A stretch of 32,532 bases of DNA from Vermamoeba vermiformis (taxonomy: Eukaryota): positions 1-32,532 of the forward strand of contig JBEWZL010000024.1 of NCBI GenBank assembly GCA_045837725.1, read 5' to 3'. Each line of letters opens with the position of its first letter. Position 1 is the stretch's first letter. Positions 1 to 32,532 of this stretch are shown piece after piece. Made by a program: the position numbers and the translations under genes. The notes beneath the pieces were generated by a model. It had not been told where the DNA came from. It ran no database searches and worked only from the letters and a program-made list of their open reading frames with translations.

Positions 1-104
1 GAATGCCTGCGCTGCTCGTGGGGGTAAATTCAGCTTTATTAGGGGTGGTGGCTCCCCGTCACCCCCCGCCACGGGTTGGGGCTAACGAGAGCACCAAAGC
101 CCCC
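1..104. repeat. Split direct repeat B2 (3' terminus of element)
   Basis: Identical by eye to 337-440 (gaatgcctgcgc...caaagccccc); contains a minus-strand AATAAA (tttatt 35-40). Confidence 0.95.
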
Positions 105-137
105 TATTGTACAACGTGAATAAAAATAAAAATTAAA

Positions 138-337
138 AAGAAAAAATTAACAAATAAATATTAGGCTCTGTCAAATATACGAGCCTTGTGGTAGTCTTGG
201 CGTTGGCGTTCGACACTTCTATTTCCTCGAACTTCCAATTTTGGTGTGAATCGCACGTGACTTCTCCACCAGGGCTGCCAAAAACCGATCCGCTTGGCCT
301 ATTCATACGCTAAGTGCTGCGTCACTGTAGCTGCACG
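138..337. repeat. Split direct repeat A2
   Basis: Matches 4503-4701 except one indel in an A-run (ccaaaaaccg vs ccaaaaccg). Confidence 0.95.
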
Positions 338-440
338 AATGCCTGCGCTGCTCGTGGGGGTAAATTCAGCTTTATTAGGGGTGGTGGCTCCCCGTCACCC
401 CCCGCCACGGGTTGGGGCTAACGAGAGCACCAAAGCCCCC
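337..440. repeat. Split direct repeat B1
   Basis: Identical to 1-104; abuts A2 at gctgcac-g-aatgcc, the predicted circle-junction sequence. Confidence 0.95.
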
Positions 441-469
441 AAACACAGCGAACGAGCCCCCAAACCAGA

Positions 470-1545
470 TCATTGATAGATTGCCGCCGCCGTCGCCAGA
501 GACAAGGAAGAGCAGCGCTCAAAAAATTGAGGAGTTCTCATCGCCTCGATGATCGCCTGTGGGACTGACAAGCGCTGATCCAGAGAAAAAGTGACGTAAC
601 GCATGTAGGCGTCTGACACCCAGTCTCCTTGAGCCTTGACCATCACCCTGTCCGCTCCCGCGATGAAGGCTCCCGTCGTGCCACCTTTACGCAGCGAGTG
701 TGCGGAGAAATCCTTCGGATCCAACCCGCACTGAAGGCAGGTCTTCTTGATCACTGGAGAAAACAGGTAAGTAAGCACAATATGCAACTACTGCCACGAT
801 ACTTACTATCGTTAAGCTTCGAGTGCACCAGCGGCATAACTCTACCGTCATCACCTTTAAAACAAAAAATCGACCCCGATTCAGGCATGGGACACAAGGC
901 CCACATCGCCTCCAGGGCCACTTCGGGACACAGCGCATTTCCCGGTACTGAGAGCAGCGGGATGATCAGCCTTCTCTCGTTGAATTGGACTGTCTTCGTT
1001 CGATTGAGCGAAATTAAGAAACCACGCTCGTTCCTTGACAAGTTCAACGCGCTGAGATGCTTTGCTGGGTCGAATTTCTTCGCAGATTTCTGCACAAGGT
1101 TTCCACCCCGAAGAAAAGACCAGAAGCCGACCACGAGGCAAGCCCAGAAAGTGCGGTGGAGAGATGATGACCAGTCTAAGCACGCCTTGAGTTTGAGCAA
1201 CTCCACAGGAGTGAGAGGGTGCTTGCTCGACGGTGTGTAGGACTGCGCGCGTTTAATGCCCTTGAGGACCACCTTGAGGCGAAGGCTGTCACGCGCTGGG
1301 TGTGGGCCACCATGCAACTGTTGAAAAGCGAAAATGGCTGTCAAGTATGTCTTGATCGAACTTGCCTTGACGCCATTATTTGCAAGATATGCCGCGTAGT
1401 CGGCCAGGACAAACTCGTTCGTCGGGAAGAATGTTCGATTCGAAGCGTAGCAGAACCTGGCAAAGGCCGAAACCACTGCCTGCCTGGCCTTGACCGTGGA
1501 GTCCACATAGCCGAGGCCAATGTAATCTTCCGCTGTCAAAGACAT
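470..1545 (-). CDS. Tyrosine recombinase of the retroelement, 2 exons (1545-807, 753-470), 340 aa
   Basis: Catalytic R in FLRGGNL, HSLRKGG (HxxR), GDWVSDAYMRY (W and Tyr nucleophile). The two ORFs join in frame by removing a 53-nt GTAAGT...CTCCAG intron (806-754). Confidence 0.92.
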
Positions 1546-3170
1546 TCTGGATCAAACTCGGGGCACAACTGCATGGAGAGCCCTTTGTCAATCAGTTTGT
1601 CGAAATTCAATCGCGAACCCGCATCTGCCAGGTCGTTAAGAACCCCCGGTACGTGGACCGCAGTCAAGTGAAAGTTGTGTGTCGCTGATAGCCAAAACAG
1701 AGACCGTAGCATTCGCATGATGATTGGGGATGCTGAAGACCCCTTGTTGATGGCCGAAACGGTCGTGGTATTGTCCGATGAGACGATCACCCGCTTGTTG
1801 GCCCATTCTGGGGCCCAGCGAAGCGCAGCCAAGTAGACTGAAAGGCACTCCTTATCATTGATGTGCCACGCAGATGTCAAAGGGTCGTGGATCCGCACGA
1901 TGAAGTGCTTGTCGAAGATAGCACACGCAGCACTATTTGAGGCGTCCACCTCAAACCGACGCATGTCAATGGGCATTGGGTCCAGCATAACGGCTTTGCC
2001 ATTCCAGGCGCTCGCAAATCGAAGCCACCAATCCAAATCTGCACGGAATTCATCGTCTAGAGACACCACGTGATGTCGCTCTGGGACCGAGTTGGCCAGG
2101 ATGATCATGCGGCGGAGGAAAGTGCGTCCGCCCCTGATCACTTTAGCGCCGAAGTTGAGCTTACCAATCAAGCGCTCCAGATCGCGCTTAGTGCACGAAA
2201 CTCGATCCTTGAAGCTCCGTAGAATGTCGAGAAGGTCAGCTAGCTTGTCTTCTGGTAAAGAAATGATGCGATCATGCATATTGATGCGGATGCCAAGGAA
2301 GACCAGATCCTGACAGGGCTCAACCATCTTCTTCTCTGAAATTGGCCAACCCAATTCGGTTAGACACTCGCGGAAATTGACGAAGTCTTTCCAAGCTTGA
2401 GCGCGTGCAGCATCAGAGTCAGTGCCAACAGAAAGCACGAGGAAGTCGTCAATGTAGGGCAAAATGAAGGCCACGTTAAAGAACTTGTTGCCTACTCGGA
2501 CAATGAAATTAGAAATTCTCCAGAAAACGTAAGGAGCTGAAGCTAGACCAAAGCAGAGGCGCAGATCGATGTAGAAGGTGCCACGCCACTCGAAGCCAAA
2601 GTAATGCCAGTCACCCGGCCAGATCGGGACATGACGATAAGCTGTTTCAATGTCGAACTTGCAGCTAAAAACCCAAGGGTTTTCCATTATGAAGTCGCAT
2701 GCATCATCGACCGTGCTAAACTGAAAATTGACCAAATCAATGTATTCATTCAACGCCGCACCCTTTGGGCGACTGAGATCAGTAATGCGACGGAACTTGC
2801 CTTCGCTCTTCTTGACTGCACCAAGAGCATTGACTTTGTATGGTTGGACTGGCAGTACTGCAATGAAACCCTTCTCTAGTTCCGTCATAATGTCTTGGTG
2901 GATGAAGTCTTCGCACTCCAAGACACTAGCGTAGTTCGGCAAGAAAGACGCTGGCACAGCCACACCCTCCTTGACAACTCGAAGGCCACCACCAGGCTTG
3001 AAAATGTCGGTCAGGAAGTCGGCGTCAGAGTCCCCCACCAAGAATCTCTTCCACTGATTGAAGCGGAGGGTCACTGCACTAGAGCGGGCTACGATCTCTA
3101 CTCCCGGCGCTCCGCAGACGCGCCCGATGAACTCGTCTTGCCGGGATGGCCTTTTGGGCCACTGGAGCAA
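1536..3170 (-). CDS. Reverse transcriptase / RNase H (pol)
   Basis: FRRITDLS, KFDIETAYRH, LCFGLASAP, YIDD; RNase H motifs DAS, HINDKE, SDN, HVPGVLNDLADAGSR. No ATG near the 5' end, so probably reached by frameshift from gag. Confidence 0.95.
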   Translation of the reverse strand: MLQWPKRPSRQDEFIGRVCGAPGVEIVARSSAVTLRFNQWKRFLVGDSDADFLTDIFKPGGGLRVVKEGVAVPASFLPNYASVLECEDFIHQDIMTELEKGFIAVLPVQPYKVNALGAVKKSEGKFRRITDLSRPKGAALNEYIDLVNFQFSTVDDACDFIMENPWVFSCKFDIETAYRHVPIWPGDWHYFGFEWRGTFYIDLRLCFGLASAPYVFWRISNFIVRVGNKFFNVAFILPYIDDFLVLSVGTDSDAARAQAWKDFVNFRECLTELGWPISEKKMVEPCQDLVFLGIRINMHDRIISLPEDKLADLLDILRSFKDRVSCTKRDLERLIGKLNFGAKVIRGGRTFLRRMIILANSVPERHHVVSLDDEFRADLDWWLRFASAWNGKAVMLDPMPIDMRRFEVDASNSAACAIFDKHFIVRIHDPLTSAWHINDKECLSVYLAALRWAPEWANKRVIVSSDNTTTVSAINKGSSASPIIMRMLRSLFWLSATHNFHLTAVHVPGVLNDLADAGSRLNFDKLIDKGLSMQLCPEFDPECL

Positions 3171-4480
3171 TGAAGGACATTGTGATTGGAGGACTTACAG
3201 TCAGAGCAAGAATGAGAGTACTCGCATGCATCAGAGCTCTTCGAACAACCCTTGTGACCGTTGAAAGCAAAGCAGACACCCTTCTTCTTCTTGGTGCCTG
3301 AAAAGGCCTTGGGCTTGTTGTCCTGCTTGGCCTCGGCACGTTGATGAATTGGACGCGCTCGAAGAGTAGTGAAGAGGCTCTCCAAGGGCCTGTCTTTCCA
3401 GCGAAGCTTGCCCACTGCTTGGAGCGATCTGAGGCGCTCGTCCAGTGCCATAACTGAGAGCCATTCGTAGCCATCACCAAGCTCCACGATCCAGCGGACA
3501 AAGGCATTGTAATCTCGCTCGACAAAACCTTCCTCCTTCTCGAGGAGGTCCTTGACTTCCCACGACGCTCGGATATAATCCTCCGCGTTCTGTGGGACCT
3601 TAGCCTGCGAGGGTTGCAACCTCTTCTCCAATGCCTCCTTGGTGAAACAGCGCGGGAGATAGACCTGGCCTGGCTTCCTCAGCTCGACTGTCGCTTGGAC
3701 GTCCGCCAGTTGACCAACAGGGGTGGCTTTCGACGTTCCGTGGATCAAAGATTGGCCCCAGGGCTGAGGCAAAAGCAAGTTGTTGATGGGGCTCTGGGGA
3801 ACGAGGCTCCCGGCTAGCGAGTCCAACTGCGATTTCATCGACGACAACTTGAGCTCCAATTGGGCGATAAGTGCGTCAGCACCCGCCGCCACCTTAGGGT
3901 CTTTCGCCAAAGCGCTAGGAGGGGGGACATCCGTGATCTGAACTGCTGGAGCTGTAGCAGGGGTCTTCGGTTGAGACTCTCCGATCTTCTGCCGTTTATT
4001 GCGCTTCTTCTTCATGTACTCTCGGACAGCTCGGGCAATCTCCGCTTCAGTACTGTCTGAGTCTTCTGAATCTTGGTCGCCATCCGAGTTGATCTTCTCA
4101 GGAGACTCCGATGGGCGATCCACTGGCTGAGGAGGTCCCTGGGACGACCAATTCTCCACCCGTTTAGTCACTGGGGCCAACAACGGCAACAGCTCCGGAT
4201 CCTCCACTAAATCTGCCGCCTTGGAGTAGATCCGAGAGATTTCCTCCTTCGACACTGCTGGACTGCGCTCCAATTGATCAAACTCCCCTCCTAAGCAGTA
4301 CGCCAACGCCAGGGAGCATAAGAAGCGAAGCTGGTCCACATCTGACCCAGCCTGATCTATGATCGACCATTTCACGGATCCCAGAGCTTGCTTCCAGAGT
4401 CGCGCTTCAGGCCAGTTTGAGAGTAGTGGGGTCTTGAGTGTCTCCACTAGGTTCTGGATAAACGATTGTCTCGCAGTCAT
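3098..4480 (-). CDS. Gag-like ORF1 with C-terminal Cys/His zinc-binding region
   Basis: 460 aa, ATG just inside repeat A1; CFAFN..GC...C...H.C..C....H....C motif typical of YR-retroelement ORF1; overlaps pol. Confidence 0.85.
   Translation of the reverse strand: MTARQSFIQNLVETLKTPLLSNWPEARLWKQALGSVKWSIIDQAGSDVDQLRFLCSLALAYCLGGEFDQLERSPAVSKEEISRIYSKAADLVEDPELLPLLAPVTKRVENWSSQGPPQPVDRPSESPEKINSDGDQDSEDSDSTEAEIARAVREYMKKKRNKRQKIGESQPKTPATAPAVQITDVPPPSALAKDPKVAAGADALIAQLELKLSSMKSQLDSLAGSLVPQSPINNLLLPQPWGQSLIHGTSKATPVGQLADVQATVELRKPGQVYLPRCFTKEALEKRLQPSQAKVPQNAEDYIRASWEVKDLLEKEEGFVERDYNAFVRWIVELGDGYEWLSVMALDERLRSLQAVGKLRWKDRPLESLFTTLRARPIHQRAEAKQDNKPKAFSGTKKKKGVCFAFNGHKGCSKSSDACEYSHSCSDCKSSNHNVLHCSSGPKGHPGKTSSSGASAERRE
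3102..3158 (-). promoter_or_regulatory. Putative -1 ribosomal frameshift signal (gag to pol)
   Basis: C_CCA_AAA heptamer (3158-3152) in gag phase, pol is in the -1 frame, 5-nt spacer, then stem-loop UCCCGGC/GCCGGGA (3146-3140 with 3108-3102) enclosing AGACG/CGUCU. Confidence 0.7.
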
Positions 4481-4502
4481 CGTTGAAATTTATTTCCGAA
4501 TT

Positions 4503-4701
4503 AAGAAAAAATTAACAAATAAATATTAGGCTCTGTCAAATATACGAGCCTTGTGGTAGTCTTGGCGTTGGCGTTCGACACTTCTATTTCCTCGAACTTC
4601 CAATTTTGGTGTGAATCGCACGTGACTTCTCCACCAGGGCTGCCAAAACCGATCCGCTTGGCCTATTCATACGCTAAGTGCTGCGTCACTGTAGCTGCAC
4701 G
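4503..4701. repeat. Split direct repeat A1 (5' terminus of element)
   Basis: Near-identical to 138-337; sequence switches to AT-rich host coding DNA immediately after 4701. Confidence 0.95.
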
Positions 4702-5376
4702 GATGGAGAGTACTTTAAACCGATCTTGTCTTATTTAAGAACTGGCGAGCTGGAAATACCACACGATATGTCCCATAATAGAGTACTACGTGAAGCAGAA
4801 TATTACAACATTAGATTGCCAGAAATAGAAGTTGACGAATCCGAATCCAACGATCAACCAAGACAATTGCTAAAATTCAATGGAATATACGTCTCATCTG
4901 ATTTAAGCAAAGGCCTATTATTTTTGGATGATAAGAACGTGCTGGTCTACAAAACAAACGAAAACGTGATGGAGCGCGAGGTTTATCATTATCCCATGAA
5001 CGAGCTGCAGATTTCGTTTGAAGGAAATTTCTTTTTATTGGACAAATACCTTATTAACAACTCGATGAGCTTTGATTTTTATACCGGCGAATTACCCAAG
5101 CCAAACACCGATTACAAATGCCATCAAGACAAAAAACTAATTTTAGCGCTAAGTTTCAGACCGAACCAACAGCTGAATATTATAGGCACGCATACGAAGA
5201 CTATGAATACTGATTATCACGTGTCAAGAACACCGCGGAACATTCCGATCATCTTGCTGAAGAATTGCAATGTTTTAGCGGCCGAGAAAACAAACACGTT
5301 CTCGCTGATTTATTGTTTCGGCGATATTTTAGTGGCCTGCACGAGCAGCATGCAGTTCATATTAGTTAGGACCTAG
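4702..5376 (+). pseudogene. 3' part of a BTB/POZ (KCTD/T1-type) gene interrupted by the retrotransposon
   Basis: Begins DGEYFKPILSYLRTGEL...VLREAEYYNI, the second half of the KCTD BTB motif (FIDRDG.F..IL.YLR.G); the first half is absent from the window. Confidence 0.8.
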
Positions 5377-8178: not shown

Positions 8179-10090
8179 CTAACAGTATTGCAATTGAGCT
8201 AAGAGAACTACAATTTGATCCATCAACTGACGAGCAGGACCAGATCCAGCGGCGTTTTGATTTACCATTACTGAGAATACGATAGGATTGTACTGGCCGG
8301 GACGCAAGACATATCCAGCCAATGTATATGTATCAGACAGCGATCCTATAGTTATCGATATTCAATTAGTCTCACGAGAACCTCTTATAGATCTCGATCC
8401 GATCTTACCAGTCTTTGCAAACACAACGCCTTGAGCAGGAGTGCCAACGAATCTATATTTCAGCGTACCAGACTCGCCTATATAAATTATATGATAAATT
8501 AGTGCCAGATAAGATAAGGTAACGGATCGCATCTGTTTCGTACCGGCAACAGGAAGAATGTTCACGAATGAAGGTGCCTTCTGTAATATGGCTCTTAAAA
8601 ACAGTACGAGTGATTTAGGACTGATTAAGTTCTTGCGACTCAATCCACTGCCGTCAGCTTGAATGAACAGATCGCCGTCCACACCCAAATTAGTGAGAAC
8701 GGACCTGACTTTAGCCAAGCCGTTGTCAACCTCGTCGAGATTAGCTACAATGTCATATTAGTATATGATTTCTTTAGTACTTTGCTTTGGACTTACGATC
8801 TGAGATGAAATTTGTTCCTAAATGTCTGAGCCACATTTCAGCCTCCAAATTAACGCTCCATTGCAAAGTATTATTCATCATAACATATAAAGGCGGCGAG
8901 GTGAGCGAAGCCGCCGATTGAACGATGAACTCGTTGCTGTCGTCGAACGCGATCTGTTGTTTAATCGCTTCCATCGTGTGCAAGCCCTCGTGCGTGACTT
9001 GAATATTGTTGTTTTTCAACGCAGCCACGAATTGCTTTTGGAAATAGAGCGCTGTATCGGCCACAGCAACACTAACATCGAACGATTGCGCGCCAACGCT
9101 AACTTGACCAGTCAACTTGAGGTAAGTGGTGCCCCATTGATAATTAGCATCGAGTGTATTGACATTCGGAGTTGAGGCTGCAATAATATTAGTTCATAAT
9201 AATAATCAATAAAACGTTCTAGGACGCAGAAAAAAAATTACGAAAAAGATAGATACAAGCTGATTCAAAAGCAAACTTACTAGTAGCAACGTTAATGATT
9301 AACTTGCTCAACAAATAGTCTTGATCGGCGCTATTATAGAACTTGACTTGGACATTTTGGCTCGGATCTGAAGGCGGGACAACAGTAAAGGTAATAACGT
9401 TCTCATTCAATACAAAAGGTGTCGGCAGAGCACCCTATATTCCAGTTATTAATATGCATCGTATATTTATGTAACTTACGTAATTGGCGGTGAGATCGCC
9501 CCAATCCCAAGTGCTTGGTGGTTGTAACGCCTTAAAATACGATTGATCGACGCCAACAAAATTAACTGTGGTAATTCCGCTTTGAGACAATTGACTGGCG
9601 AGCTGATCAAGCTTCTGGAAGGTCAAAGAGGGGTCACCGCGTCCTTTAGAAATTTGATCAGCTCAGAAAACGAGTTAGAAAAGTTACCTGTCACAATTAA
9701 TACATCTACAGTGCTTCTACTATTTGCTGCTGTAGCCTTGCTCGTGTATGTTGTAACGTCAGTTTTAATAGCGTAGTCAGGGCCGAGAGACAGCAAGGCA
9801 GATCCAGAAGTCAGCACTTTATTCGTAGATGCAGGCAAAAAATAGTTTACAGCATCCCCTACGATTAATTTATTATTTGATTATTATCTAACTGATCCTA
9901 ACCGGATTTGAAAATATCTCAATTAAATTAACCAAAATACCTACGTGAGTAAAGAGGCTTTCCTTGCCACGTTTGATTGTTAATCTCTTCTACATAAATT
10001 CCCCAACGTGAATGGGTTACAACGGGACTGTTTGCAAGAAGATTGTCAATTAGGCTCTGTAATTGCGAGGGAATTTGACATTTTCTTCCC
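8179..10090 (-). CDS. D-Ala-D-Ala carboxypeptidase/endopeptidase, peptidase S13 (PBP4/DacB-like), intron-containing; 5' exon not found
   Basis: PASTNK (SxxK), SVN (SxN), DGSGLSRKNLISP, LPVAG..GTLKYRF, AKTG motifs spread over exons with GT-AG introns. Confidence 0.88.
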
Positions 10091-19953: not shown

Positions 19954-21194
19954 TTTGGCCTAAAAACCGTTAATACTCGATTAAAATTATTCATCATTAT
20001 TTGCCCTACGTTTTTTTAACAAAAATAATCGAATAAACAAATGCCTTGTCGTTGTTGTGTCATTATTTTAAATAATAAATAAAGAAACGAGACTTTTTGG
20101 CTCAGAAACGTCAATCAGGCCAAAATTGCTTATAATTACCTTTAGCCGTAATGGCACCTCCTAGCATCGAGATAGTCGATATTTTAATTTAAATTGGTAC
20201 GATTTATTACGTAGTACTAGTACTCGGTAACGGTCAGCTGACTTGGGAAACGTGCCGCGTACGCCCATAGTTCGCTATCACCGTAAAAAGCTTCTCTTAT
20301 GGTAGCCTGCAAACAGCGAATTTATCCTTGTAGCCAGGTGCACCTGTAATAACAAACATGAGTTAGAGGAACGGGATGGAGCAAGATGAGCTATCACACC
20401 CTATTATCCTTACGCCCTATAGGGAAGAGCGCAAGTATCTTGACGGGTGTTTGTGATGAGTAGATAACTTACATTGTGCAAGTCTGAATGGCGCACGACA
20501 AGGTTTGGTAGGACGAAGTCGATGGCGATCTGAACAGATGACATTAATATCAAAATCAACGTGAAAAATTGATTAAAAATTATAAATGATATATAATCAG
20601 GTACTGAGGGTTGTAATCATTTCAAATCAGGTGAAACACGGACAGTACAAAAGTTCATCAGGTTATGTTGCGGATTTGTTGTTGAAAAAATTAATTTTGA
20701 ATAAAATAGCTTACCAAAGCCATGACATTGCAAAGAAACGACGAGATTGGACTCTGCACATGAGAAAAAAAAATTAGAAAATATATTCACGATCGCATCA
20801 AACAAAAAAAATAAGAGGCTATTTCTTGCGTCAGGTTTACAGTATCGTTCATTATTTTTCAGAACAGGTCTGTGTAAAATTTGTATCATCATAGAAGAAA
20901 GCTGCACTGTTGCTCAAGCAAAGCAAGAGATATTGCTACGCACCTAATCCATAATGCTGGGACCTCAGACGCCTTGTTCGTTTCTCATGCGTGGTAGTTG
21001 CTTGGAGAAGTAGGAAGCAATGCCGCAACGAAGCGCAGCAAGATAGTTTAAGCCAAGTTTTGCAGTTAAGCCACGATAGAAATTCCAATTTCTGCCAAAG
21101 ACTTGTTCGCGAATTTTTTATGCCAGAAGAACACGCATTGTAAATAGAGGTGTGCTGTATTTATTAGTATATATTTGTATTCACAAGCAAACCA

Positions 21195-24100
21195 ATGTGT
21201 ATTTTCTGCTTACAATACGGTCAAAAACTCCTTCACAAAGAGCTGCCATCCACCAATACAACCTTCAAGCTACCAAAATCAGTCAAAAATAATCAAGAGA
21301 AATTCTTCGAAATAGTGCAATGGGAAACTATCGATTTTATATCGAAGCAAGTCCGAGAGTTCATGCCTGTTAAGCTGGTACCTCTACAAACGACAGGAGA
21401 TGGTAACTGCTTACTTCACGCACTCTCTCGTGCCATGTGGGGAGTAGAGATATTCTGGGAATTATTAAGGAAGTCTCTGCACGAAGAGCTCTCAACGAAT
21501 CTTGAGTGGTATAAGAAAATAAGCGCAGAAAAATATGAAGAAAAAGAATTCGAGCAAATATTACATCAAGCATCTGAAAAAGGTCAACATTTACAATTTA
21601 TTCACGTTTTTGCAATGGCCAACGTGTTGAAACGACCAATTATTATTTACGGTTCAGATGAAGATATTGAGCGATACGGCATGGGCGAGGTATGTAAAAT
21701 TATTTATGACATATAATATTTGTAGTTCTGCCGTAAATTTTGGGACCACACAAAACCAGGAATTTGCGATCTCGATTTTCTTAAATATTTAAGAGGCGTC
21801 ACCCTATTTTTATGCATAATAACAGGTCATCATGATAGTGCATAACAGCAATGACAACGCCTCTTTATTCTGAAAAAATTCTTGTTGTTTCGTTGCAGAT
21901 CCGTTTCAGAAACTCGTTCTAACCATTTTTAATTTAGCTTGGTGTAGCCGCCTTATTTTTGCCAACACGCCACGGAGCACAGGTAATTAATGGCTTTCAT
22001 TTTGGGATACTTATGTCTCGTCATCAATATTGACGTTATTCACTGAAAACGTAATCTATTTTAGGAGTGTAAAGCCAGACCGTTAGCATTAGCTTGGAGC
22101 TCGCATTATAAAAATCATTACGTGCCACTAGTGATGCTTGAGGGTAATATTCAAAAGATACTTTGATTTGTTTATCAATGCTCAAAATATTTTCTGCAGG
22201 CGAGCAAGTAGACTGGCCGCTATTAGATATGGCATTTAAAAACACATTACACGAGAATGAAAAAATAGAAGATTACTTGCGTCCAGATTTAGAAGAGGTC
22301 ATGCCTGAAATTGAAAGTTTGATGTCCAACGACGACAATTTGCGTGACTCGGACGAGATTGCAAAAGATCGTGAGGCCTCGAGAAGCTTACAAGAGAAAC
22401 TAGAAGCCAGTGTGAGGATGTTACTAGGTTAGTATCTTATATTTAAATATTACTATTGTTACCAACGGTGCGTAAACTAACGCGTGACTGTTGCAGAGCG
22501 AAGACAACGAGAAATGGAGAATCAATTGAAATTAATGGCACTCATTCAACAATTGCAATCACAAGATGAATCCGCACAAAAGAGTCCTAAAAAGGGCGAT
22601 AAGATGGTGTTTATACCGGGCAAAGGCTTCTTCAGAATTAACACGAGTGGCGTCGAGGACGAAGATCCTGAAGCGGGCGTCGATCCAGACTCGAGCGACG
22701 ATGATCCAATGGACATTGAAAACGAGTCCGAAGAGATGAAACGAATCAGACAAGACTTGAAACAATTAGAAAAAATCAAAAAGAAGCGAGAAAAGCTCTT
22801 GCGCCAGAAAGATGATCTCTCAAAAATCCAACAAAAACAAGAAAAAGATCAATCTGACATGACCGAGGGCATGTCTATAACAGAAGAAGACGTTCTCGAT
22901 GAGCGGGAGTATGACGTGATCAGAAGTGTTGCAGTTTCAAATCGCTTGAAACGACCTCTCGGATTTAACGTCACAGACAACCCTGAACAAGTGGCAATGG
23001 ACTTTTGCATCCGCGAGAACCTCGTTCAACAGCACTCTAAAGTCGCGTTGTTCGTGCGCAACAATCAAAAGTACTTCATCGAGCACCCCGAGGCCATCGT
23101 CAAGAAAAAGATTAGAGATTTATTGAAGCCTGGCGATCCGTTGCTCCGCGTCCTCGAAATGAACAAGAAATACAATCACTTCCCATTCCAAGTAAGGCTA
23201 AAAATATTTCAGATCTACTTGCACGAGAGTAACCATTTTTATTTGTAGGCTAAGCCCCTGACGTACAGTCAAGGAAAGTACGAGGCAATTCTGGCCAAGT
23301 TATTATCGTTCAACGATCCTGTTGGCAAATTGAACCCTGCCATGGCCTTGGACGCCACGGAAATTAAATTCTTGGAACGAACAGTGGCCTCGTTGCAACA
23401 GTACGCTGAGAACACGCAGGCATCAACTTTTATGACCGAAGAGTTGAACGTCATTTGGAAGCTGCTTCAATGGCCCGCTGATAAAGTCTTCCCTGGTAAG
23501 CGGATCTCATTCTCACTTTCGAAGGTACGCTCCCATTAACGATTTATATTTAGCGTTGGATATTTTGCGTATCTTAGTGTTGCACCAACATGCAGCTATG
23601 CAGTTGATGAAGTACACAGACGCTTATTTCAAGTCGAAGAGCACGCGCTTCGTTGAAATGACCAAAGATTTTGATTTGAACCAAGAACGTGACTTGTTGA
23701 AGATATTATTGAATTTCACTAATGTCCCTGGTACGTATATATGGCACGATCGAAATTAGAGTCAATAATACTAACTTGCCTTGTAGAACAAAATATCTCC
23801 AAGATCAACTTCATGCTGGGCTTGAAGTTCGTCTCCAATTTGTTCGCGCACACGGACTTCGTGCCTAGTTTGCGACTGGTACGTCAATAGTCGTCATTCT
23901 TATTACGATATCTAACATAGTTTTGTTGCAGTACCAAGATGTTATTCTGGACAAGATTGTTGGTGGTGCTATGGCCTTCGTTGCCGACAAGAATCTCGCG
24001 AGTATTATTGCTAGTGTCCTGCTGAAGTACGTATCTTTTGGCAAATGTATTAGCGCCGTTTACTAACGTTTTCAATTAGCTACTCGGTCATTTTCTTCAA

Positions 24101-27828: not shown

Positions 27829-28700
27829 ATGAATCCCATAAATTGCGTCCTATCGTGTGGAGAGGATAAGCAGAGTTTTCATTTCTCCGCAGATGACACC
27901 CCGGAAAGTCGAGAAGCCACAATTCGTCAAGCGTTTGGGCTTCCTGAAGGCATTCCAATTGTGGTGATCGAGAAAATTCCTCAACCAGGTGGTGGTGTGA
28001 AGCAGCACGTCGTTGGTTTAATGGCCCTAAGTCAGCCTGGGACCTACGAAGTTTCTTTAGGTATTTGCACATCAATTATTTACTGCAGCAAACTAAAGTT
28101 GATATTCTAACATGAAAAGAACAACGAGCGTCATTTATAACTGAACCAACACATCTTGTCTTGCGATCCACGAAGAAGAAGAAAGAAAAACCAGAAAAAA
28201 TTGAAATTTCAACAGTATTTACCGAGGTCGACTTTGTTTCCAAATATGACGAAGTGAATGGACTGCAGCTGTTGTGTCATTTTGCAGTCTCTTGGGGCAT
28301 CAGCAATAGTCAGGGATTCGACACGCACGGCTCTCCGTTCTACATCTCTTCACTGGATGCTAGATGCACTTTACTGGCGGCAGGTTAGTGAAATCGCCCC
28401 ATGTTACAATTAAGTCCTAATATATTTTGAGCAGAAGGTATGACCCTCTTGACTAGAGATCACCTCCCGAAAGACGAATGGCAATCAACTTCAAGAACTG
28501 ACACCCGGGGCTGGAACATTGGCGCTGAATTAACCATTCCTAACGTTGCACAATCGGGTGCGAAACTAGGCTTCGGATATACGTCTACTAAGTCACACCA
28601 ATCATCTGCAACTGGAATGGTAGCTACTAACCACGAGTTCTGGCCAGGCAAAGTTGACGATGTGCAAGCTCATATTCCTATTTCGGCGAGCACACTTTAA
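27829..28700 (+). CDS. Hypothetical 3-exon protein with a leukocidin/hemolysin-like beta-hairpin segment, possibly truncated
   Basis: Three consecutive plus-strand ORFs separated by intron-like gaps; DHLPKDEWQSTSRTDTRGWNIGAELT...GAKLGFGYTSTKS shows Ser/Thr-rich alternating pattern. Confidence 0.5.
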
Positions 28701-29229
28701 TAAATTTATCGCCGAACAGCAACCACACATCAACGAATAAACTTAACCGGTGATAGAACAGCTTATATAGTATATAATAGTCAGCAAATTAATCGTCAGC
28801 GTGGTCGTACTGTAAGGTAAGATCCCCGGCACTTTAGCATCTGATAAAATTTTTGTTCAACTATGAATTATATGATTCTGTCTATTATATTTCGCATATA
28901 TATATATTATACCAATTATTGGTGCATAACAGAGCTTGAATTACACCAAAATTGAATTTTTTCGGTTTATTCGATCTGGCTCGGAAATTATCGTTTTTCC
29001 AAAATAGCTTGGCAGCAATACTTCATAATTTAATATAATACAAGGAAAATTATCTAAAGTATGATTTGCAGAAATTTTGTACATTCGATACTGCTGTGCC
29101 CCCATCCGCGAACTCTCTCTCAAGCAACAACAGAACAATCAAAATTGGCCTGGGAGTGGTTCTAGTTATCAAGTATGTAATGCTTTAGCACTATAGATAA
29201 GAATGCAACTGATTCTCAATAGTATAGGA

Positions 29230-32159
29230 ATGGCTGCGATTGTGAATGAAGGTGCGACGTGTTACATCAGCGCATCTCTTCAGTTATTGTACAGTTTAGC
29301 ACCGTTGCGCGAGCAAATCTTAATATGCAATCCTAAAACACCTCTTGGACTTGAATTGAAGAAGATATTTGTGCAAATGTCACAATTAAAAACCGTTCAA
29401 ATTGGGCAACTCGCAACGTTAATGAACATCAGCAAGTCAGACTGTCGACATAAACAAGAAGATGCCCAGGAATTCATCATTAGTGTTGTTCATAAATTGG
29501 ATAAAGACAAAGAGATGAAAAGAATTTTCTCGTCGGTGTTTGCAGGTTCGACTGTTACCACAATATCTGAGCGAAACATTGAACCATTTTTGGGTAAGTG
29601 CATTGATAGTTTAACGCAACTCTGACAGCAAAGTTGCAGATTTGTCCGTTCCAATTCCAAAACACCCGGCTCCAACTCTGATTGAATGCATTCAGTTATT
29701 GTTCGACAACAATACAAAGTTTCATTCAATGCCGCAAGTACTGCTGTTGCATATAAAGCGATTTTCGGCCACTAAAAAGCTTACTTCTCGAGTTGAATTT
29801 CGAGCAAAGTTGACAATACCAGCAACATTAAATGACAACAATTGCGCAGAGGCATTCAAGTTGCAGTCGTACATTGTCCATCAAGGTTCCAAAAACAAAG
29901 GTCACTATTGGACAAATAGTCTTTGTAATGGACAATGGATGGAATTAAATGACACAAAAATAACTAAAGTAAGGTATATCATTTTGTAGGCAACTTTCTG
30001 ACATCAATAGATTAGTGGAGCTGCCAATCAAAAGTACTTTGAAGGCGAGTCTGTCGGATACCTAGTTGCATATGTTCAAGAGAGAGCTCAATCACCAATG
30101 AAAGCTAAGAGAGCTGCTACCAAGAAAATTGATGATGATTATATGGACTGGGATACAGCATCAAGCTCTGATATGCCAGCAATTCACTCTATTGATAGTG
30201 ACTCTTACGAAGCAAGTGAAAGTGTTGACTCTGACTACTGGTTTGAAGATTATGAGTGTGAGGAAGTATCGGATGAACAGCCAAAAGTAAACAAATTTGC
30301 TGATGGTAAGTAATAAGGAATGCATTGATATTAATCTAATGGATTCCCAGTGAAAAAGCAAGCTGAAGTTGAGGGCTGGAAGATTGACGGCAAAAAGTTC
30401 AAATCCAAGAAAGATTACATCCCTCCTCCTGCTCCTGGCCCAAAGCGTGCAGTAATACTTCAGATAATCAACCAAATTCGGCAGCTACACAATCAATCCC
30501 AATTACAATCAGTTCTTAATGTCAGTCCCCTTGATTGTTACTTGTTGCTAATGGAGGAAGTTATTAACCACATTGTTTCCGAAACCAACAAGCAAAATGA
30601 CAAATTTAAGCTCACTTATAGTGATATTAGTGCGTACATCGGAGTAAGGATAGCCCAGCAATTATCTCCAAGTCATGCTATTGATGATGCTTGGGCAACA
30701 TTCAAGTATTCAAGAGGAATGTGGGGTAATCGTTGGATTGCCAAAACAATGCTCAAAGATGAATACAAGTTCATACACAGCAACAAGTCGTAAGTGATTG
30801 TGCTGCATTTATCAATACTAATTCATTCAGTTTTGATCTTTATCATGTGTGGCGGCTCTTAAATGAGAAATATTCCTCAATTTGGACCCCTTATGGAAAC
30901 TTGGCACTTGATGATAAAGCAAATGCATGGAAAGGGCGTTCAATTTATCGAATTTACCGTCAACGGAAACCATTCCCATGGGCAATGTTAGAATACATCA
31001 CAATTGATGAAGCAGGCTGGATTGTAGCATTCATTCCACGTTATGGAGATTTTGCTAGTGTTACAAAGCAGTATCAACAGTGGAAAGAACGATATGACAA
31101 TTGGTTGCAAAACAAAGGAGATAAACCACCAGCATTCAAACGCTTGTTCCCAAGTGCCAGCAAGACAAACTTCAATTTACACATGGCTATCAATTTTTTG
31201 TTGTCAAGACTTCCTGACACTGATGGCAATTTGGCACCCTTTATAGTGTCTCCATGGACAGTTGATGACTGGAGTGCAATATTCTCTCGCGATATTTCCA
31301 ACTATCAAATATATTGTGACAGAGAGTTCAGTTCTTATTGGCATCACTTTCGTCAATTCAAAGGTCTTGGATATACCTTGGGCATTGCTTCTGGACACCA
31401 CACTCATCTATTCCGCGACAACTTAGCCGTTGGTTTGAAAATTGGAGACTGGCATTCATTAACGGATAATTCAGAAGTCATTTTGACATATTCTGATCCT
31501 CAAGGGTCAGTTTGCCATTGGGTTAGTAACAGGCATTCTGGAGAAGCTGTAGCATGCAGCAAGAAGCAAGGCAACAAGCAAGTCAAAAAGCAAAAAGTCG
31601 CTTCTGTCCCTACATTAATAGCACAGTACAGAAAGCATTTTTCAGCAGTTGACTCTCATAACTCCAAAGCCAAAAAATTCTTTTGGCCACATCGCATTCG
31701 CAAGGTAAAGACAGTATTTTATCTAAAATGGTGTAACGTAACGTTTTAGGTTACTGATCGCTATGTGCTGGGAGACTGGGAGAGATCTGCTCAGGTTCAG
31801 GCGGAGCTATTGTACCAGGCTCTAACAGACAAGGACATATCATCAAAGGAATTTCTGTCCACCTTGTCTCGCAGTTTGACAGAGAACTTTGTAACAAAGA
31901 GAGAGAGATCAACTTCTGTTGAAGCATTGGACTTAGCAAGGTCAAGTGCCAAACACAATCCTTATGCACACAGTTGCACGTATACTTTTGGATCACGGAA
32001 ACGTTGCTTCCACTGCCAGAGTGAACAAGTTGATTCTTCTACAATGTAAGCTTACTTATTATTTCATTAATAACAGTCAACCTTAGGTATAAATGCCAAC
32101 AGTGTAAAGTGCACCTCCACAAAAAGTGCTGGAAGAAATTTAAAGGAGTGAATTTATAA
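29230..32159 (+). CDS. USP (peptidase C19) deubiquitinase - piggyBac transposase fusion, 7 exons, 889 aa from ATG 29230
   Basis: Exons 29230-29593, 29640-29968, 30011-30305, 30351-30789, 30831-31704, 31750-32045, 32087-32159; all six 41-46 nt GT-AG introns keep frame. USP: NEGATCYISASLQ, QEDAQEF, FLDLSVPIP, HQGSKNKGHY, WMELND. piggyBac: LALDD..AWKGR...KP..W, IYCDREFSS, YRKHFSAVD, CFHC...YKCQQCKVHLHKKC. Confidence 0.9.
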
Positions 32160-32193
32160 TTAAAATAGTAGTAATCTAGTTGTTAGTCAGGCA

Positions 32194-32321
32194 AGTGGTG
32201 ACGTGTTCCACGTTGTGGTGTGACATGAGCACGAAAGTGACTGCTGTGGTTAGACGTAAGACTCTCCACATGTATGTGTGGGTATGAGTCAGAATGAGCC
32301 TTCCACAGTAGAATTGCCACT
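32194..32321 (+). ncRNA. Putative structured RNA, copy 1
   Basis: Closing helix AGUGGUGA/UUGCCACU; arms CGUGUU/GACAUG with CCAC-GUU-GUGG, CAC-GAAA-GUG, CUGCUGUGG/CCACAGUAG, GACUC/GAGUC; covaries with copy 2. Confidence 0.6.
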
Positions 32322-32461
32322 GGTCTATTGGACTCTCCTAAGTGACGTGTTCCACGTTGTGGTGTGACATGAGCACGAAAGTGACTGCTGCAGTTAGACG
32401 TAAGACTCTCCACATGTATGTGTGGGTATGAGTCAGAATGAGCCTTCTGCAGTAGAATTGC
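32198..32461. repeat. Direct repeat, 2 x 120 bp, period 144
   Basis: 32198-32317 vs 32342-32461, 116/120 identical. Confidence 0.95.
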
Positions 32462-32465
32462 TTAG
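32338..32465 (+). ncRNA. Putative structured RNA, copy 2
   Basis: Closing helix CUAAGUGA/UUGCUUAG; CUGCUGCAG/CUGCAGUAG; otherwise identical to copy 1. Confidence 0.6.
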
Positions 32466-32532
32466 ATAAGAGTTCAAAAAACCCATTTTTCAGTGATGGG
32501 TATCGTATACCCTTGCAGTTGGTTAAGGAATA

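What the first reader, a model, noticed from the sequence alone, without database searches (positions are those of the whole stretch)
29230..32159. piggyBac transposase with an N-terminal ubiquitin-specific protease retaining its catalytic motifs
Seen: six short GT-AG introns join the separate ORFs into one 889-aa frame, and splicing restores motifs (EPFL|DLSVPIP; ITK|IS...GYLVAY; STM|YKCQQC). The USP has the Cys box (NEGATCY), QEDAQEF, the His box (HQG...GHY) and the Asp of ND. An acidic linker follows, then all three piggyBac catalytic Asp positions (LALDD, YCDRE, AVDSH) and the Cys-rich C-terminal domain. Known: transposons carrying Ulp1/C48 SUMO proteases or OTU domains exist in other superfamilies; I do not know of a USP/C19 fused to a piggyBac transposase. 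Inference: the DUB could protect the transposase from degradation, strip histone ubiquitin or silencing marks at donor or target chromatin, or alter repair choice at the break.
Basis: partly seen in the sequence, partly recalled or inferred. Interest (0 to 1): 0.92.

Follow-up and report, generated by a model that had tools for sequence, protein, structure and literature searches.

The report
Deubiquitinase fused to piggyBac-derived nuclease gene
One seven-exon gene joins a ubiquitin-removing protease to a piggyBac-type DNA-cutting enzyme, the same fusion is kept in a distant relative, and it looks more like a gene the host has adopted than a jumping transposon.

Summary
Six GT-AG introns of 41-46 nt join 29230-32159(+) into one 889-aa frame. 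Pfam finds UCH/USP in exons 1-2 and piggyBac DDE_Tnp_1_7 in exons 4-5, all above the curated cut-offs. The USP Cys, His and Asn/Asp and the three piggyBac Asp align to solved USPs and to piggyBat. A model of exon 5 matches only piggyBac and piggyBat structures.

A metagenome contig, L001, encodes the same USP-linker-piggyBac protein (887 aa, 52% identity). Its catalytic residues are kept, 5 of the 6 window introns are shared, and synonymous sites are saturated. The fusion is therefore old and under selection.

"Transposon" is not supported. Neither locus has terminal inverted repeats above shuffle level, there is no second copy, and the introns are host-like. The catalytic pattern is D-D-D-N, as tabulated for PiggyMac.

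I read it as a domesticated or immobile piggyBac-derived gene that captured a USP at its N-terminus. No transcript evidence could be obtained. Nine literature searches found no USP-piggyBac report. A C19-transposase_11 fusion in Trichomonas is on record.

The 3' flank carries a conserved, covarying pair of structured RNA-like elements.

The parts
29230..32159 (+). Whole coding region of the USP-piggyBac fusion gene: 7 exons, 6 introns, 889 aa, TAA stop at 32157-32159
   Evidence: Spliced translation has no internal stop. The same architecture is found in L001.
29230..29593 (+). Exon 1: start codon, USP Cys box (oxyanion Asn6, catalytic Cys11 at 29260-29262), QEDAQEF box
   Evidence: Pfam UCH E 3.1e-11, profile 3-135. 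Aligns to the USP34 Cys box. The M-A-x-I-V-N start is conserved in L001.
29594..29639 (+). Intron 1 (46 nt, GTAAGT..CAG), phase 1
   Evidence: Same position and phase in L001.
29640..29968 (+). Exon 2: USP palm and His box (His210 at 29903-29905, Asn225/Asp226 at 29948-29953)
   Evidence: Pfam UCH E 1.2e-16, profile 141-236. Aligns to the USP2/USP21 His box.
29969..30010 (+). Intron 2 (42 nt), phase 0
   Evidence: Shared with L001.
30011..30305 (+). Exon 3: end of the USP domain (to about 30085, GYLVAYVQER), then an acidic linker (21 Asp/Glu and 9 Lys/Arg in 77 residues)
   Evidence: The linker is only 25% identical to L001, against 44% for the USP.
30306..30350 (+). Intron 3 (45 nt), phase 1: the USP/piggyBac junction. 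If retained, a stop follows after 2 codons (30314-30316).
   Evidence: Same position and phase in L001 (43 nt).
30351..30789 (+). Exon 4: piggyBac N-terminal part. It has no start codon of its own before the region homologous to relatives.
   Evidence: Pfam DDE_Tnp_1_7 E 3.2e-7, profile 7-87. ORF 30335-30793 has no Met before the GWKIDG block. 58% identical to L001.
30790..30830 (+). Intron 4 (41 nt), phase 2
   Evidence: Shared with L001.
30831..31704 (+). Exon 5: piggyBac catalytic core. Asp503 at 30910-30912, Asp639 at 31318-31320, Asp750 at 31651-31653, and Asn753 at 31660-31662 at the fourth-Asp position.
   Evidence: Pfam E 3.1e-9. The three Asp align to piggyBat 9c0f. AlphaFold model has pLDDT 73.3, and its only Foldseek hits at E<=0.001 are 6x67 and 9c0f.
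31705..31749 (+). Intron 5 (45 nt), phase 0; present in the window only
   Evidence: L001/P0002 read RKVTERY straight through this point.
31750..32045 (+). Exon 6: C-terminal helical region and first half of the Cys/His-rich domain (from about 31954)
   Evidence: 65% identical to L001 over residues 769-889.
32046..32086 (+). Intron 6 (41 nt), phase 2
   Evidence: Shared with L001.
32087..32159 (+). Exon 7: second half of the Cys-rich domain (YKCQQCKVHLHKKCW) and the stop
   Evidence: Only sub-threshold RING/PHD/C1-like Pfam hits. The pattern is shared with P0004-P0006. 88% identical to L001 by tblastx.
32198..32317 (+). 3'-flank structured unit 1 (about 144-nt period)
32342..32461 (+). 3'-flank structured unit 2. 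It differs from unit 1 at 4 of 120 positions, all of them compensatory.
32498..32532 (+). A 6-bp hairpin (32498-32512), then a 17-nt block (32516-32532) identical in L001. The window ends here.

Best explanation
The region is one gene for a bifunctional 889-aa protein. Residues 1-256 form a compact USP (peptidase C19) deubiquitinase that starts directly at the Cys box. Residues 259-335 are an acidic, poorly conserved linker. Residues 336-889 are a divergent piggyBac-family DDD nuclease/transposase with its C-terminal Cys/His zinc domain.

The fusion is old. It is kept, with both catalytic centres, in at least one deeply diverged relative. The most likely origin is the N-terminal exon capture that piggyBac elements are known for, as in CSB-PGBD3 and SCAN-PGBD1. 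The gene now most likely behaves as an immobile, vertically inherited (domesticated) gene rather than as the transposase of a mobile element.

Inferred mechanism, not shown: the piggyBac part binds and cuts, or at least binds, DNA through its RNase-H-like core and zinc domain. This holds the USP at that site. There the USP removes ubiquitin from the protein itself or from neighbouring chromatin or repair proteins, stabilising the complex or steering repair of the break.

Shown: gene structure, domain identities, retained catalytic residues, conservation and constraint, and no inverted-repeat ends within the flank sequence available. Inferred: a single transcript, domestication, both enzyme activities, and the substrate.
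For: Structure: 6 GT-AG introns give one open frame.

Domains: UCH in 2 of 7 exon translations and DDE_Tnp_1_7 in 2 of 7, on consecutive profile segments. The USP Asn/Cys box aligns to USP34. The His/Asn-Asp box aligns to USP2 and USP21. The three Asp align to piggyBat. All 3 fold hits at E<=0.001 are piggyBac or piggyBat.

Fusion: the piggyBac part has no start codon of its own. The junction intron has the same position and phase in L001.

Conservation: the L001 model is 887 aa, intact, and 52% identical overall. Nonsynonymous difference per site is 0.40 in the USP, 0.56 in the linker and 0.22-0.30 in the piggyBac parts, against synonymous differences of 0.79-1.01, which are saturated. The catalytic motifs are kept in L001 (NLGSTCY, HEGSVNSGHY, ELND, LDD, DREF, VDKH).

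Against mobility:
- The best alignments of the upstream flank to the reverse-complemented downstream flank score 19 and 22. Shuffles average 20.7 and 22.9.
- The repeat finder reported 0 inverted pairs in the window.
- There is no other copy in the 32.5-kb window.
- The window-type exon-5 protein sits on 1 contig in the 15-billion-protein collection.
- Contig k-mer depth over the gene equals that of its immediate flank (weak, because the tool warns that depth is not copy number).
- 5 of the 6 window introns are shared with L001, while the roughly 30%-identity relatives are 500-650-aa predicted proteins on 2-4-kb contigs with no USP.
- The block after the TTAA at the 3' end is identical in both loci, so that TTAA is not an element/flank boundary.

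D-D-D-N pattern: 2 of 2 USP-fused sequences have Asn three residues after the third Asp, while 5 of 5 non-fused relatives covering that site have Asp. Table 1 of Bouallègue et al. 2017 gives D D D N for PiggyMac.
Against: - There is no transcript evidence. Three RNA runs with the same species label laid 0 reads anywhere on 28000-32532, which the tool rates as no test.
- The window ends 373 nt after the stop and L001 holds only 522 nt upstream, so ends lying further out would be missed. No whole genome is held, so copy number is not really measured.
- The conserved tandem units in the 3' flank could be the subterminal repeats of a transposon.
- P0007 is a 142-aa fragment of the same lineage. 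It has Glu at the second Asp and a poorly aligning N-terminal part, and could be a decayed copy of the kind transposon families leave.
- The USP finger subdomain is short and lacks CxxC zinc ligands (read), so ubiquitin binding is not assured.
- In T. ni piggyBac all tested D450 mutants lowered excision, with tolerance only for Glu (abstract). The Asn here may therefore mean reduced or altered catalysis.
Confidence: 0.55

Rival explanations
1. It is the transposase gene of an autonomous piggyBac-like transposon that carries a USP as an accessory domain. Its ends lie outside, or are too short or divergent to see in, the sequence available.
For: All three catalytic Asp and the Cys-rich domain are intact in both loci. 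The 3' flank has conserved tandem repeats, and piggyBac-like elements can have subterminal repeats (abstract of PMC5381638). The window stops 373 nt past the stop codon. Fragment P0007 looks partly decayed. Other transposon superfamilies carry OTU, Ulp1 or C19 protease domains.
Against: No inverted repeat above shuffle level between the flanks in either locus or across loci. The upstream flanks are not conserved although the 3' flank is. In the window, at most about 530 nt separate the preceding long open reading frame (which ends at 28700) from the ATG. There is no second copy or fragment in the window. One contig holds the window-type exon-5 protein. There are six host-like introns, five of them conserved at saturated divergence. 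The compensatory changes in the 3' units point to RNA pairing, not protein-binding repeats.
Confidence: 0.28
2. USP and piggyBac parts are two neighbouring genes, or mainly separate isoforms. The in-frame junction is not used, or is used only rarely.
For: No RNA evidence was obtained. Retention of intron 3 would end a USP-only protein after 2 more codons in the window and after 3 in L001. Met codons exist in the linker.
Against: The piggyBac part lacks a start codon upstream of the blocks it shares with full-length relatives. The junction intron keeps its position and phase, and the frame stays open, in a relative with saturated synonymous divergence. The linker Met positions are not conserved.
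Confidence: 0.1
3. It is a dead relic with no present function.
For: None specific. The fourth Asp is Asn, and the USP fingers are short.
Against: Two intact frames of 887 and 889 aa. Nonsynonymous change is far below the saturated synonymous change in both domains, and the catalytic residues are conserved.
Confidence: 0.03

Closest known systems
CSB-PGBD3 and PGBD1 (SCAN-piggyBac): host exons fused N-terminally to a piggyBac transposase
   Same: An N-terminal host-type domain is spliced in frame onto a complete piggyBac transposase body. The locus is single and has no transposon ends. piggyBac is described as a natural 3' exon trap that tolerates N-terminal fusions (passages and Table 1 of PMC5381638).
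   Different: The partner here is an enzyme (a USP deubiquitinase), not a remodeller fragment or a SCAN domain. The piggyBac body itself is split by introns. All three catalytic Asp are kept, whereas that table shows departures from the four-Asp pattern for PGBD1 and PGBD3.
PiggyMac (Paramecium) and TPB2 (Tetrahymena) domesticated piggyBac nucleases
   Same: A domesticated, intron-bearing, long protein with a Cys-rich domain. The D-D-D-N pattern is listed for PiggyMac, and the fourth Asp is stated not to be conserved in PiggyMac and TPB2.
   Different: No USP is listed for them. This gene reads without internal stops under the standard code and ends at TAA at the same place in both loci. I take that, from recalled knowledge of ciliate codes, to argue against a Paramecium- or Tetrahymena-type code. 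No link to DNA elimination is shown. Homology is no closer than to piggyBac in general.
Trichomonas vaginalis XP_001314237.1: transposase_11 (PF01609) + Peptidase C19
   Same: A C19 ubiquitin hydrolase on the same protein as a DDE transposase. Bao et al. 2010 cite it as a sign that the ubiquitin pathway is involved in transposition (passage read).
   Different: The transposase family is different (IS4/IS5-like transposase_11, not piggyBac). I did not see the protein itself, and the paper it is cited from was not held.
Ginger1 (OTU or Ulp1), Mutator-like elements (Ulp1), Helitrons (OTU)
   Same: A cysteine protease of the ubiquitin/SUMO system joined to a transposon protein.
   Different: Different protease clans and different transposon superfamilies. 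Those are multi-copy elements with TIRs (Table 1 of PMC2836005). In Ginger1 the protease domain is C-terminal.

Membership tests
Peptidase C19 / USP (Pfam UCH, PF00443) | Profile match above the curated threshold over the whole domain | tested here: met
   Exon 1 scores 43.8 bits (profile 3-135) and exon 2 scores 61.6 bits (profile 141-236); the cut-off is 23.9.
Peptidase C19 / USP (Pfam UCH, PF00443) | Cys box with catalytic Cys and oxyanion Asn; His box with catalytic His and Asn/Asp | tested here: met
   N-E-G-A-T-C-Y aligns to N-L-G-A-T-C-Y of USP34. G-H-Y...L-N-D aligns to G-H-Y...F-N-D of USP2. Both are kept in L001. Which residues are catalytic is my recalled knowledge of USPs.
Peptidase C19 / USP (Pfam UCH, PF00443) | Complete finger subdomain able to hold ubiquitin | tested here: inconclusive
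   The segment between the EPFL block and the LLLHIKRF block is short and has no CxxC pairs.
Peptidase C19 / USP (Pfam UCH, PF00443) | Deubiquitinating activity | not testable with these tools
   Needs a Ub-AMC or activity-probe assay.
piggyBac-superfamily transposase (Pfam DDE_Tnp_1_7, PF13843) | Profile match above threshold | tested here: met
   Exon 4 scores 30.4 bits and exon 5 scores 37.0 bits; the cut-off is 22.4. Canonical piggyBac proteins (DDE_Tnp_1_7 E as low as 7.6e-84) appear among the 30 phmmer hits.
piggyBac-superfamily transposase (Pfam DDE_Tnp_1_7, PF13843) | DDD catalytic triad (D268, D346, D447 of T. ni piggyBac) | tested here: met
   Asp503, Asp639 and Asp750 align to the LDE, MDN and VD positions of piggyBat 9c0f. 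The triad numbering comes from the abstract of PMC2533014. That those piggyBat positions equal the T. ni triad is my inference.
piggyBac-superfamily transposase (Pfam DDE_Tnp_1_7, PF13843) | Fold of the catalytic core | tested here: met
   Exon-5 model has pLDDT 73.3 and pTM 0.73. All 3 Foldseek hits at E<=0.001 are 6x67 or 9c0f, with probability 1.00 and TM 0.39-0.48.
piggyBac-superfamily transposase (Pfam DDE_Tnp_1_7, PF13843) | C-terminal Cys-rich zinc domain | tested here: inconclusive
   The Cys/His pattern is present and shared with P0004-P0006. Pfam gives only sub-threshold RING/PHD/C1 hits and no zf-Tnp_2 hit.
Mobile piggyBac-like element (PBLE) | Terminal inverted repeats flanking the gene | tested here: not met
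   nothing above shuffle level in 1230 nt upstream and 373 nt downstream (window) or 522 and 919 nt (L001). Ends beyond these flanks are not excluded.
Mobile piggyBac-like element (PBLE) | TTAA target duplication at the ends | tested here: not met
   The only conserved TTAA (32523-32526) is followed by 6 bases identical in both loci, so it is not an element/flank junction.
Mobile piggyBac-like element (PBLE) | Multiple dispersed copies | tested here: inconclusive
   No second copy in the window. Depth equals the flank (not a copy number). One contig in the protein collection. No whole genome is held.
Domesticated piggyBac-derived gene (PGBD-type) | Purifying selection on an intact frame | tested here: met
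   pN 0.22-0.40 in the domains against pS 0.79-1.01. The criterion comes from PMC5381638.
Domesticated piggyBac-derived gene (PGBD-type) | Single orthologous copy at the same place in different species | tested here: inconclusive
   About 370 nt of 3' flank is shared with L001, but the 5' flanks show nothing in common. The flanks are too short to reach neighbouring genes.

The most novel reading that the evidence does not exclude
This is not a transposon but an old host gene. It would be a catalytically live, PiggyMac-like (D-D-D-N) piggyBac nuclease that carries its own deubiquitinase. A non-ciliate freshwater eukaryote lineage would use it for programmed DNA cutting or break repair, with the USP keeping the nuclease or its repair partners from ubiquitin-driven removal. 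The conserved pair of structured RNAs immediately downstream would be part of the same system.
Probability: 0.17. Interest if true: 0.85.

Novelty: new variant of a known kind. Interest (0 to 1): 0.6.

Why it matters
Proteases of the ubiquitin/SUMO system turn up repeatedly next to transposases: Ulp1 in Mutator and Ginger, OTU in Ginger and Helitron, C19 with transposase_11 in Trichomonas. Their role has stayed a guess. Bao et al. 2010 only suggest that the ubiquitin pathway is involved in transposition or repair.

Here a USP with all its catalytic residues is welded to a piggyBac nuclease that also has all of its own. The pair has been kept through saturating divergence. That gives a compact, expressible test object. 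Mutating the Cys or the Asp residues separately would show whether DNA cutting, protein stability or repair outcome depends on the deubiquitinase.

If the gene is domesticated, it adds an enzyme-enzyme fusion to the short list of piggyBac-derived host genes that keep a live catalytic centre. It could also inspire piggyBac tools with altered stability or repair choice.

Tried and rejected
- Expression: the look-up of sequencing runs listed no RNA holder. Three RNA runs with the same species label were laid and gave 0 reads over 28000-32532, including the neighbouring gene, so this is no test.
- Whole genome: not held.
- Word-indexed protein searches: exon 5 against longer proteins gave 537 candidates with none at E<=0.001. 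USP exon 1 against longer proteins gave 192 candidates with none. Both are weak negatives.
- Host-gene search to name the organism: a CTNNBL exon gave 4 hits at 51-74% identity, with no organism names. The taxon is left open.
- The search for related loci: the 10-sequence alignment had no usable conserved stretch, so a 2-sequence alignment was used instead (170 pattern matches, 1 confirmed locus). Genome contigs gave 68 pattern matches and viral contigs gave 79, with none confirmed.
- ESM Atlas: nearest clusters carry PF13843, or PF00443 with or without PF13423. No listed cluster carries both a transposase and a UCH family.
- tRNA idea for the AGTTGGTTAAGG block: ARAGORN found 0 genes in the window and in L001.
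- Rfam at E<=1: only one sub-threshold snoRNA hit per locus, neither in the 3' units.
- TTAA-CC at 28743 as a left end paired with GG-TTAA at 32521: rejected, because the sequences inside do not match and the bases outside the right TTAA are conserved.
- An 8-nt inverted match between 28672-28679 and the inferred continuation of the window's end: it cannot be evaluated because the window ends there, and the 28672/28679 branch is better read as an insertion in the other haplotype.
- Paper PMC7187635 (Gladyshev and Arkhipova 2009): not held.
- Supplements of PMC5381638 were not seen. They list the 396 PGBD sequences and could hold a USP-bearing one.
Full report
**1. The observation**

Reading 28800-32532 and the stop-to-stop frames shows a chain of + strand open frames separated by short gaps. 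Joining them at GT...AG sites gives seven exons: 29230-29593, 29640-29968, 30011-30305, 30351-30789, 30831-31704, 31750-32045 and 32087-32159. The resulting frame is 889 aa and ends in TAA.

The six introns are 46, 42, 45, 41, 45 and 41 nt. All are GT...AG, and five begin GTAAG.

**2. Domain identity**

I scanned the 7 exon translations against Pfam.
- Exons 1 and 2 match UCH/USP (PF00443) at E 3.1e-11 and 1.2e-16, on consecutive parts of the profile (3-135 and 141-236 of 254).
- Exons 4 and 5 match piggyBac DDE_Tnp_1_7 (PF13843) at E 3.2e-7 and 3.1e-9.
- Exons 3 and 6 match nothing.
- Exon 7 gives only sub-threshold RING/PHD/C1-like hits.

Against solved structures:
- Exon 1 aligns its N-E-G-A-T-C-Y box to USP34.
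- Exon 2 aligns G-H-Y...L-N-D to the His box of USP2 and USP21.
- Exon 5 aligns LALDD, YCDRE and AVDSH to the LDE, MDN and VD positions of the piggyBat transposase 9c0f.

An AlphaFold model of exon 5, built with 10 aligned sequences, has pLDDT 73.3 and pTM 0.73. It has 3 Foldseek matches at E<=0.001 in the PDB. All 3 are piggyBac (6x67) or piggyBat (9c0f).

The USP is compact. It starts at the protein's first residues. It has a short finger region without CxxC pairs, so its ubiquitin binding is not assured. The spliced domain could not be folded with the tools.

**3. Relatives**

A full HMMER scan of 1.84 billion representatives with exon 5 found only 30 proteins at E<=0.001.
- One is the window's own exon.
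- One is P0002, at 57% identity.
- One is P0007, a 142-aa fragment at 52% identity.
- A set of 500-650-aa proteins lies at about 30% identity.
- The remainder are canonical piggyBac transposases.

I scanned 17 of the 30 plus 3 cluster members with Pfam. Of these 20, 0 carry UCH and 18 carry DDE_Tnp_1_7. The 13 I did not scan are 79-373 aa, too short to hold both domains. The full-length 30%-identity relatives have acidic or Ser-rich N-termini instead of a USP.

**4. The same fusion elsewhere**

A scan of metagenome contigs returned one locus, L001 (4379 nt), that encodes the P0002-type protein. tblastn with the spliced window protein shows that L001 also encodes the USP upstream. Identity is 48% over residues 1-124, 35% over 148-316, 56% over 334-475 and 57% over 477-889.

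I built its gene model: seven exons, 887 aa, no internal stop. The start M-A-x-I-V-N, the Cys box, the His box, the N-D pair, the three Asp and the Cys-rich end are all kept.

Five of the window's six introns are at the same residue and phase in L001, including the USP/piggyBac junction intron. One intron is private to each locus.

Constraint across the protein:

| Region | Nonsynonymous differences per site |
|---|---|
| USP | 0.40 |
| Linker | 0.56 |
| Three piggyBac segments | 0.22-0.30 |

Synonymous differences per site are 0.79-1.01 across these regions, which is saturated. Both domains are therefore constrained, the linker much less, and the two genes are anciently diverged.

The piggyBac part has no start codon ahead of the blocks it shares with full-length relatives. 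It can therefore only be translated as a fusion, or from an unseen internal start.

**5. Transposon or host gene?**

Evidence against a mobile element:
- I aligned each locus's upstream flank against the reverse complement of its downstream flank, and also across loci. The best scores (19-25) are no better than shuffles (means 20-25).
- The repeat finder reported 0 inverted pairs in the window, and only chance-level ones in L001.
- The upstream flanks share nothing.
- The conserved TTAA near the window's end is followed by six bases identical in both loci, so it is not an element boundary.
- There is no second copy in the window.
- The window-type exon-5 protein sits on one contig in the 15-billion-protein collection.
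- In the DNA run that may be the source, contig depth over the gene (about 930-1000) equals its immediate flank. Further upstream, where depth is about 500, the only contig laid differs from the window at 9 positions, which I read as the two haplotypes diverging there. The tool warns that depth is not copy number.

These points, together with the six host-like introns, fit the criteria for domestication quoted in Bouallègue et al. 2017 (passages): a single copy, no ends, and purifying selection.

A further parallel concerns the fourth conserved Asp (D450 of T. ni piggyBac; abstract of Keith et al. 2008). It is Asn in 2 of 2 USP-fused sequences and Asp in 5 of 5 non-fused relatives that cover it. 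Table 1 of Bouallègue et al. lists D D D N for PiggyMac.

Limits on this reading:
- The window ends 373 nt past the stop.
- L001 has only 522 nt upstream.
- No genome is held.
- Fragment P0007 (Glu at the second Asp, poorly aligned N-terminal part) could be a decayed copy.

I put domesticated or immobile at roughly 0.6 and an autonomous element at under 0.3.

**6. Expression**

No RNA run holds the stretch by index. Three RNA runs with the same species label laid 0 reads on 4.5 kb, including part of the neighbouring gene. The tool rates this as no test. The single-transcript claim therefore rests on comparative evidence only.

**7. Mechanism**

Shown: two intact catalytic centres on one conserved frame.

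Inferred: the piggyBac core and zinc domain place the protein on DNA. The USP then removes ubiquitin in cis from the protein itself, or from chromatin or repair factors at that site. This would stabilise the complex or steer repair.

Which substrate it acts on is open. I know of no way to decide that by computation.

**8. Literature**

Nine full-text searches found no report of a USP/C19 domain on a piggyBac transposase. The main text of Bouallègue et al. 2017 has 0 occurrences of "ubiquitin". Its supplements were not seen.

The precedents are of neighbouring kinds:
- CSB-PGBD3 and SCAN-PGBD1, which are N-terminal fusions.
- OTU or Ulp1 on Ginger1, Mutator and Helitron proteins.
- A Trichomonas protein with transposase_11 plus Peptidase C19 (passages of Bao et al. 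2010).

This is therefore a new variant of a known kind.

**9. The 3' flank**

Both loci carry two tandem units of about 144-150 nt right after the stop. A 48-nt core is about 88% identical between loci, although the coding synonymous sites are saturated.

- All four units fold on the + strand into the same shape: a closing stem, two small conserved hairpins, and a long stem enclosing a hairpin of different sequence. Their z-scores are -2.6, -2.8, -3.2 and -1.3. The two minus-strand folds tried gave -1.1 and -1.9.
- On the four-sequence alignment, 99% of cells pair, 6 of 26 pairs show changes on both sides, and 0 of 500 shuffles reach the observed values. With four sequences this is modest.
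- The window's two units differ at exactly 4 of 120 positions, and all four are two compensatory pairs in the long stem.
- G-U pairs favour the gene's strand.
- There is no Rfam family and no tRNA.
- A hairpin of unrelated sequence, followed by a 17-nt identical block, comes next in both loci. The window ends inside that block.

Whether this is 3' UTR, a pair of small RNA genes, or former transposon sequence is open.

**10. Verdict**

The architecture is real, conserved and constrained. The "transposon" label is doubtful. Novelty is real but incremental. Function is untested.

Noticed in passing
window 32198-32317 and 32342-32461; L001 3494-3609 and 3644-3759: Tandem pair of about 130-nt elements just downstream of the stop. 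They are conserved between loci (48-nt core about 88% identical) and fold the same way on the + strand. The stems covary; the window's two copies differ only by two compensatory base pairs. No Rfam family matches. This is a candidate new structured RNA or 3'-UTR element.
   Followed up: partly
window 32498-32532; L001 3819-3850: A perfect hairpin of different sequence in each locus (6-bp stem in the window, 8-bp in L001) is followed by an identical 17-nt block containing AGTTGGTTAAGG, which resembles a tRNA D-arm/A-box. ARAGORN finds no tRNA. The window ends inside the block.
   Followed up: partly
window 28672-28679: In the DNA run X1 the contig graph branches here. One contig continues leftwards and another rightwards into sequence unlike the window, sharing the 8 nt ATATTCCT. 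This looks like an insertion with an 8-bp target duplication in the other haplotype, about 550 nt upstream of the gene's ATG.
   Followed up: no
window 28115-28669 versus 29318-32226: X1 contigs differ from the window at 9 bases plus 9 gap positions in 546 nt upstream, but at 0 positions across about 2.9 kb of the gene. Depth doubles at the same point. This suggests a tract of lost heterozygosity or strong constraint over the gene.
   Followed up: no
window 1-4705: A GC-rich (50-56%) retroelement on the minus strand. It has a reverse transcriptase ORF (PF00078, E 4e-8) between two long ORFs without Pfam hits, and it is bounded by identical direct repeats (138-283 = 4503-4648; 1-104 = 337-440). 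It looks DIRS-like to me from recall, but no recombinase family was confirmed.
   Followed up: partly
window 8362-9193 (-): Two adjacent ORFs match consecutive parts of bacterial-type D-Ala-D-Ala carboxypeptidase (Peptidase_S13), apparently split by an intron, inside a eukaryotic gene-dense region. This is a possible horizontally acquired gene.
   Followed up: no
window 21168-23248 (+): A second ubiquitin-system gene lies about 6 kb upstream of the USP-piggyBac gene. It has an OTU cysteine protease domain (E 4.8e-15) followed by a PFU ubiquitin-binding domain (E 3.6e-6).
   Followed up: no
P0007 (142-aa protein from the representative search): A third member of the USP-fused lineage (52% identical to the window). 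It has Glu instead of the second catalytic Asp, and an N-terminal 50 residues that barely align. It may be a decayed copy or an unrecognised intron. Its DNA could not be fetched.
   Followed up: no
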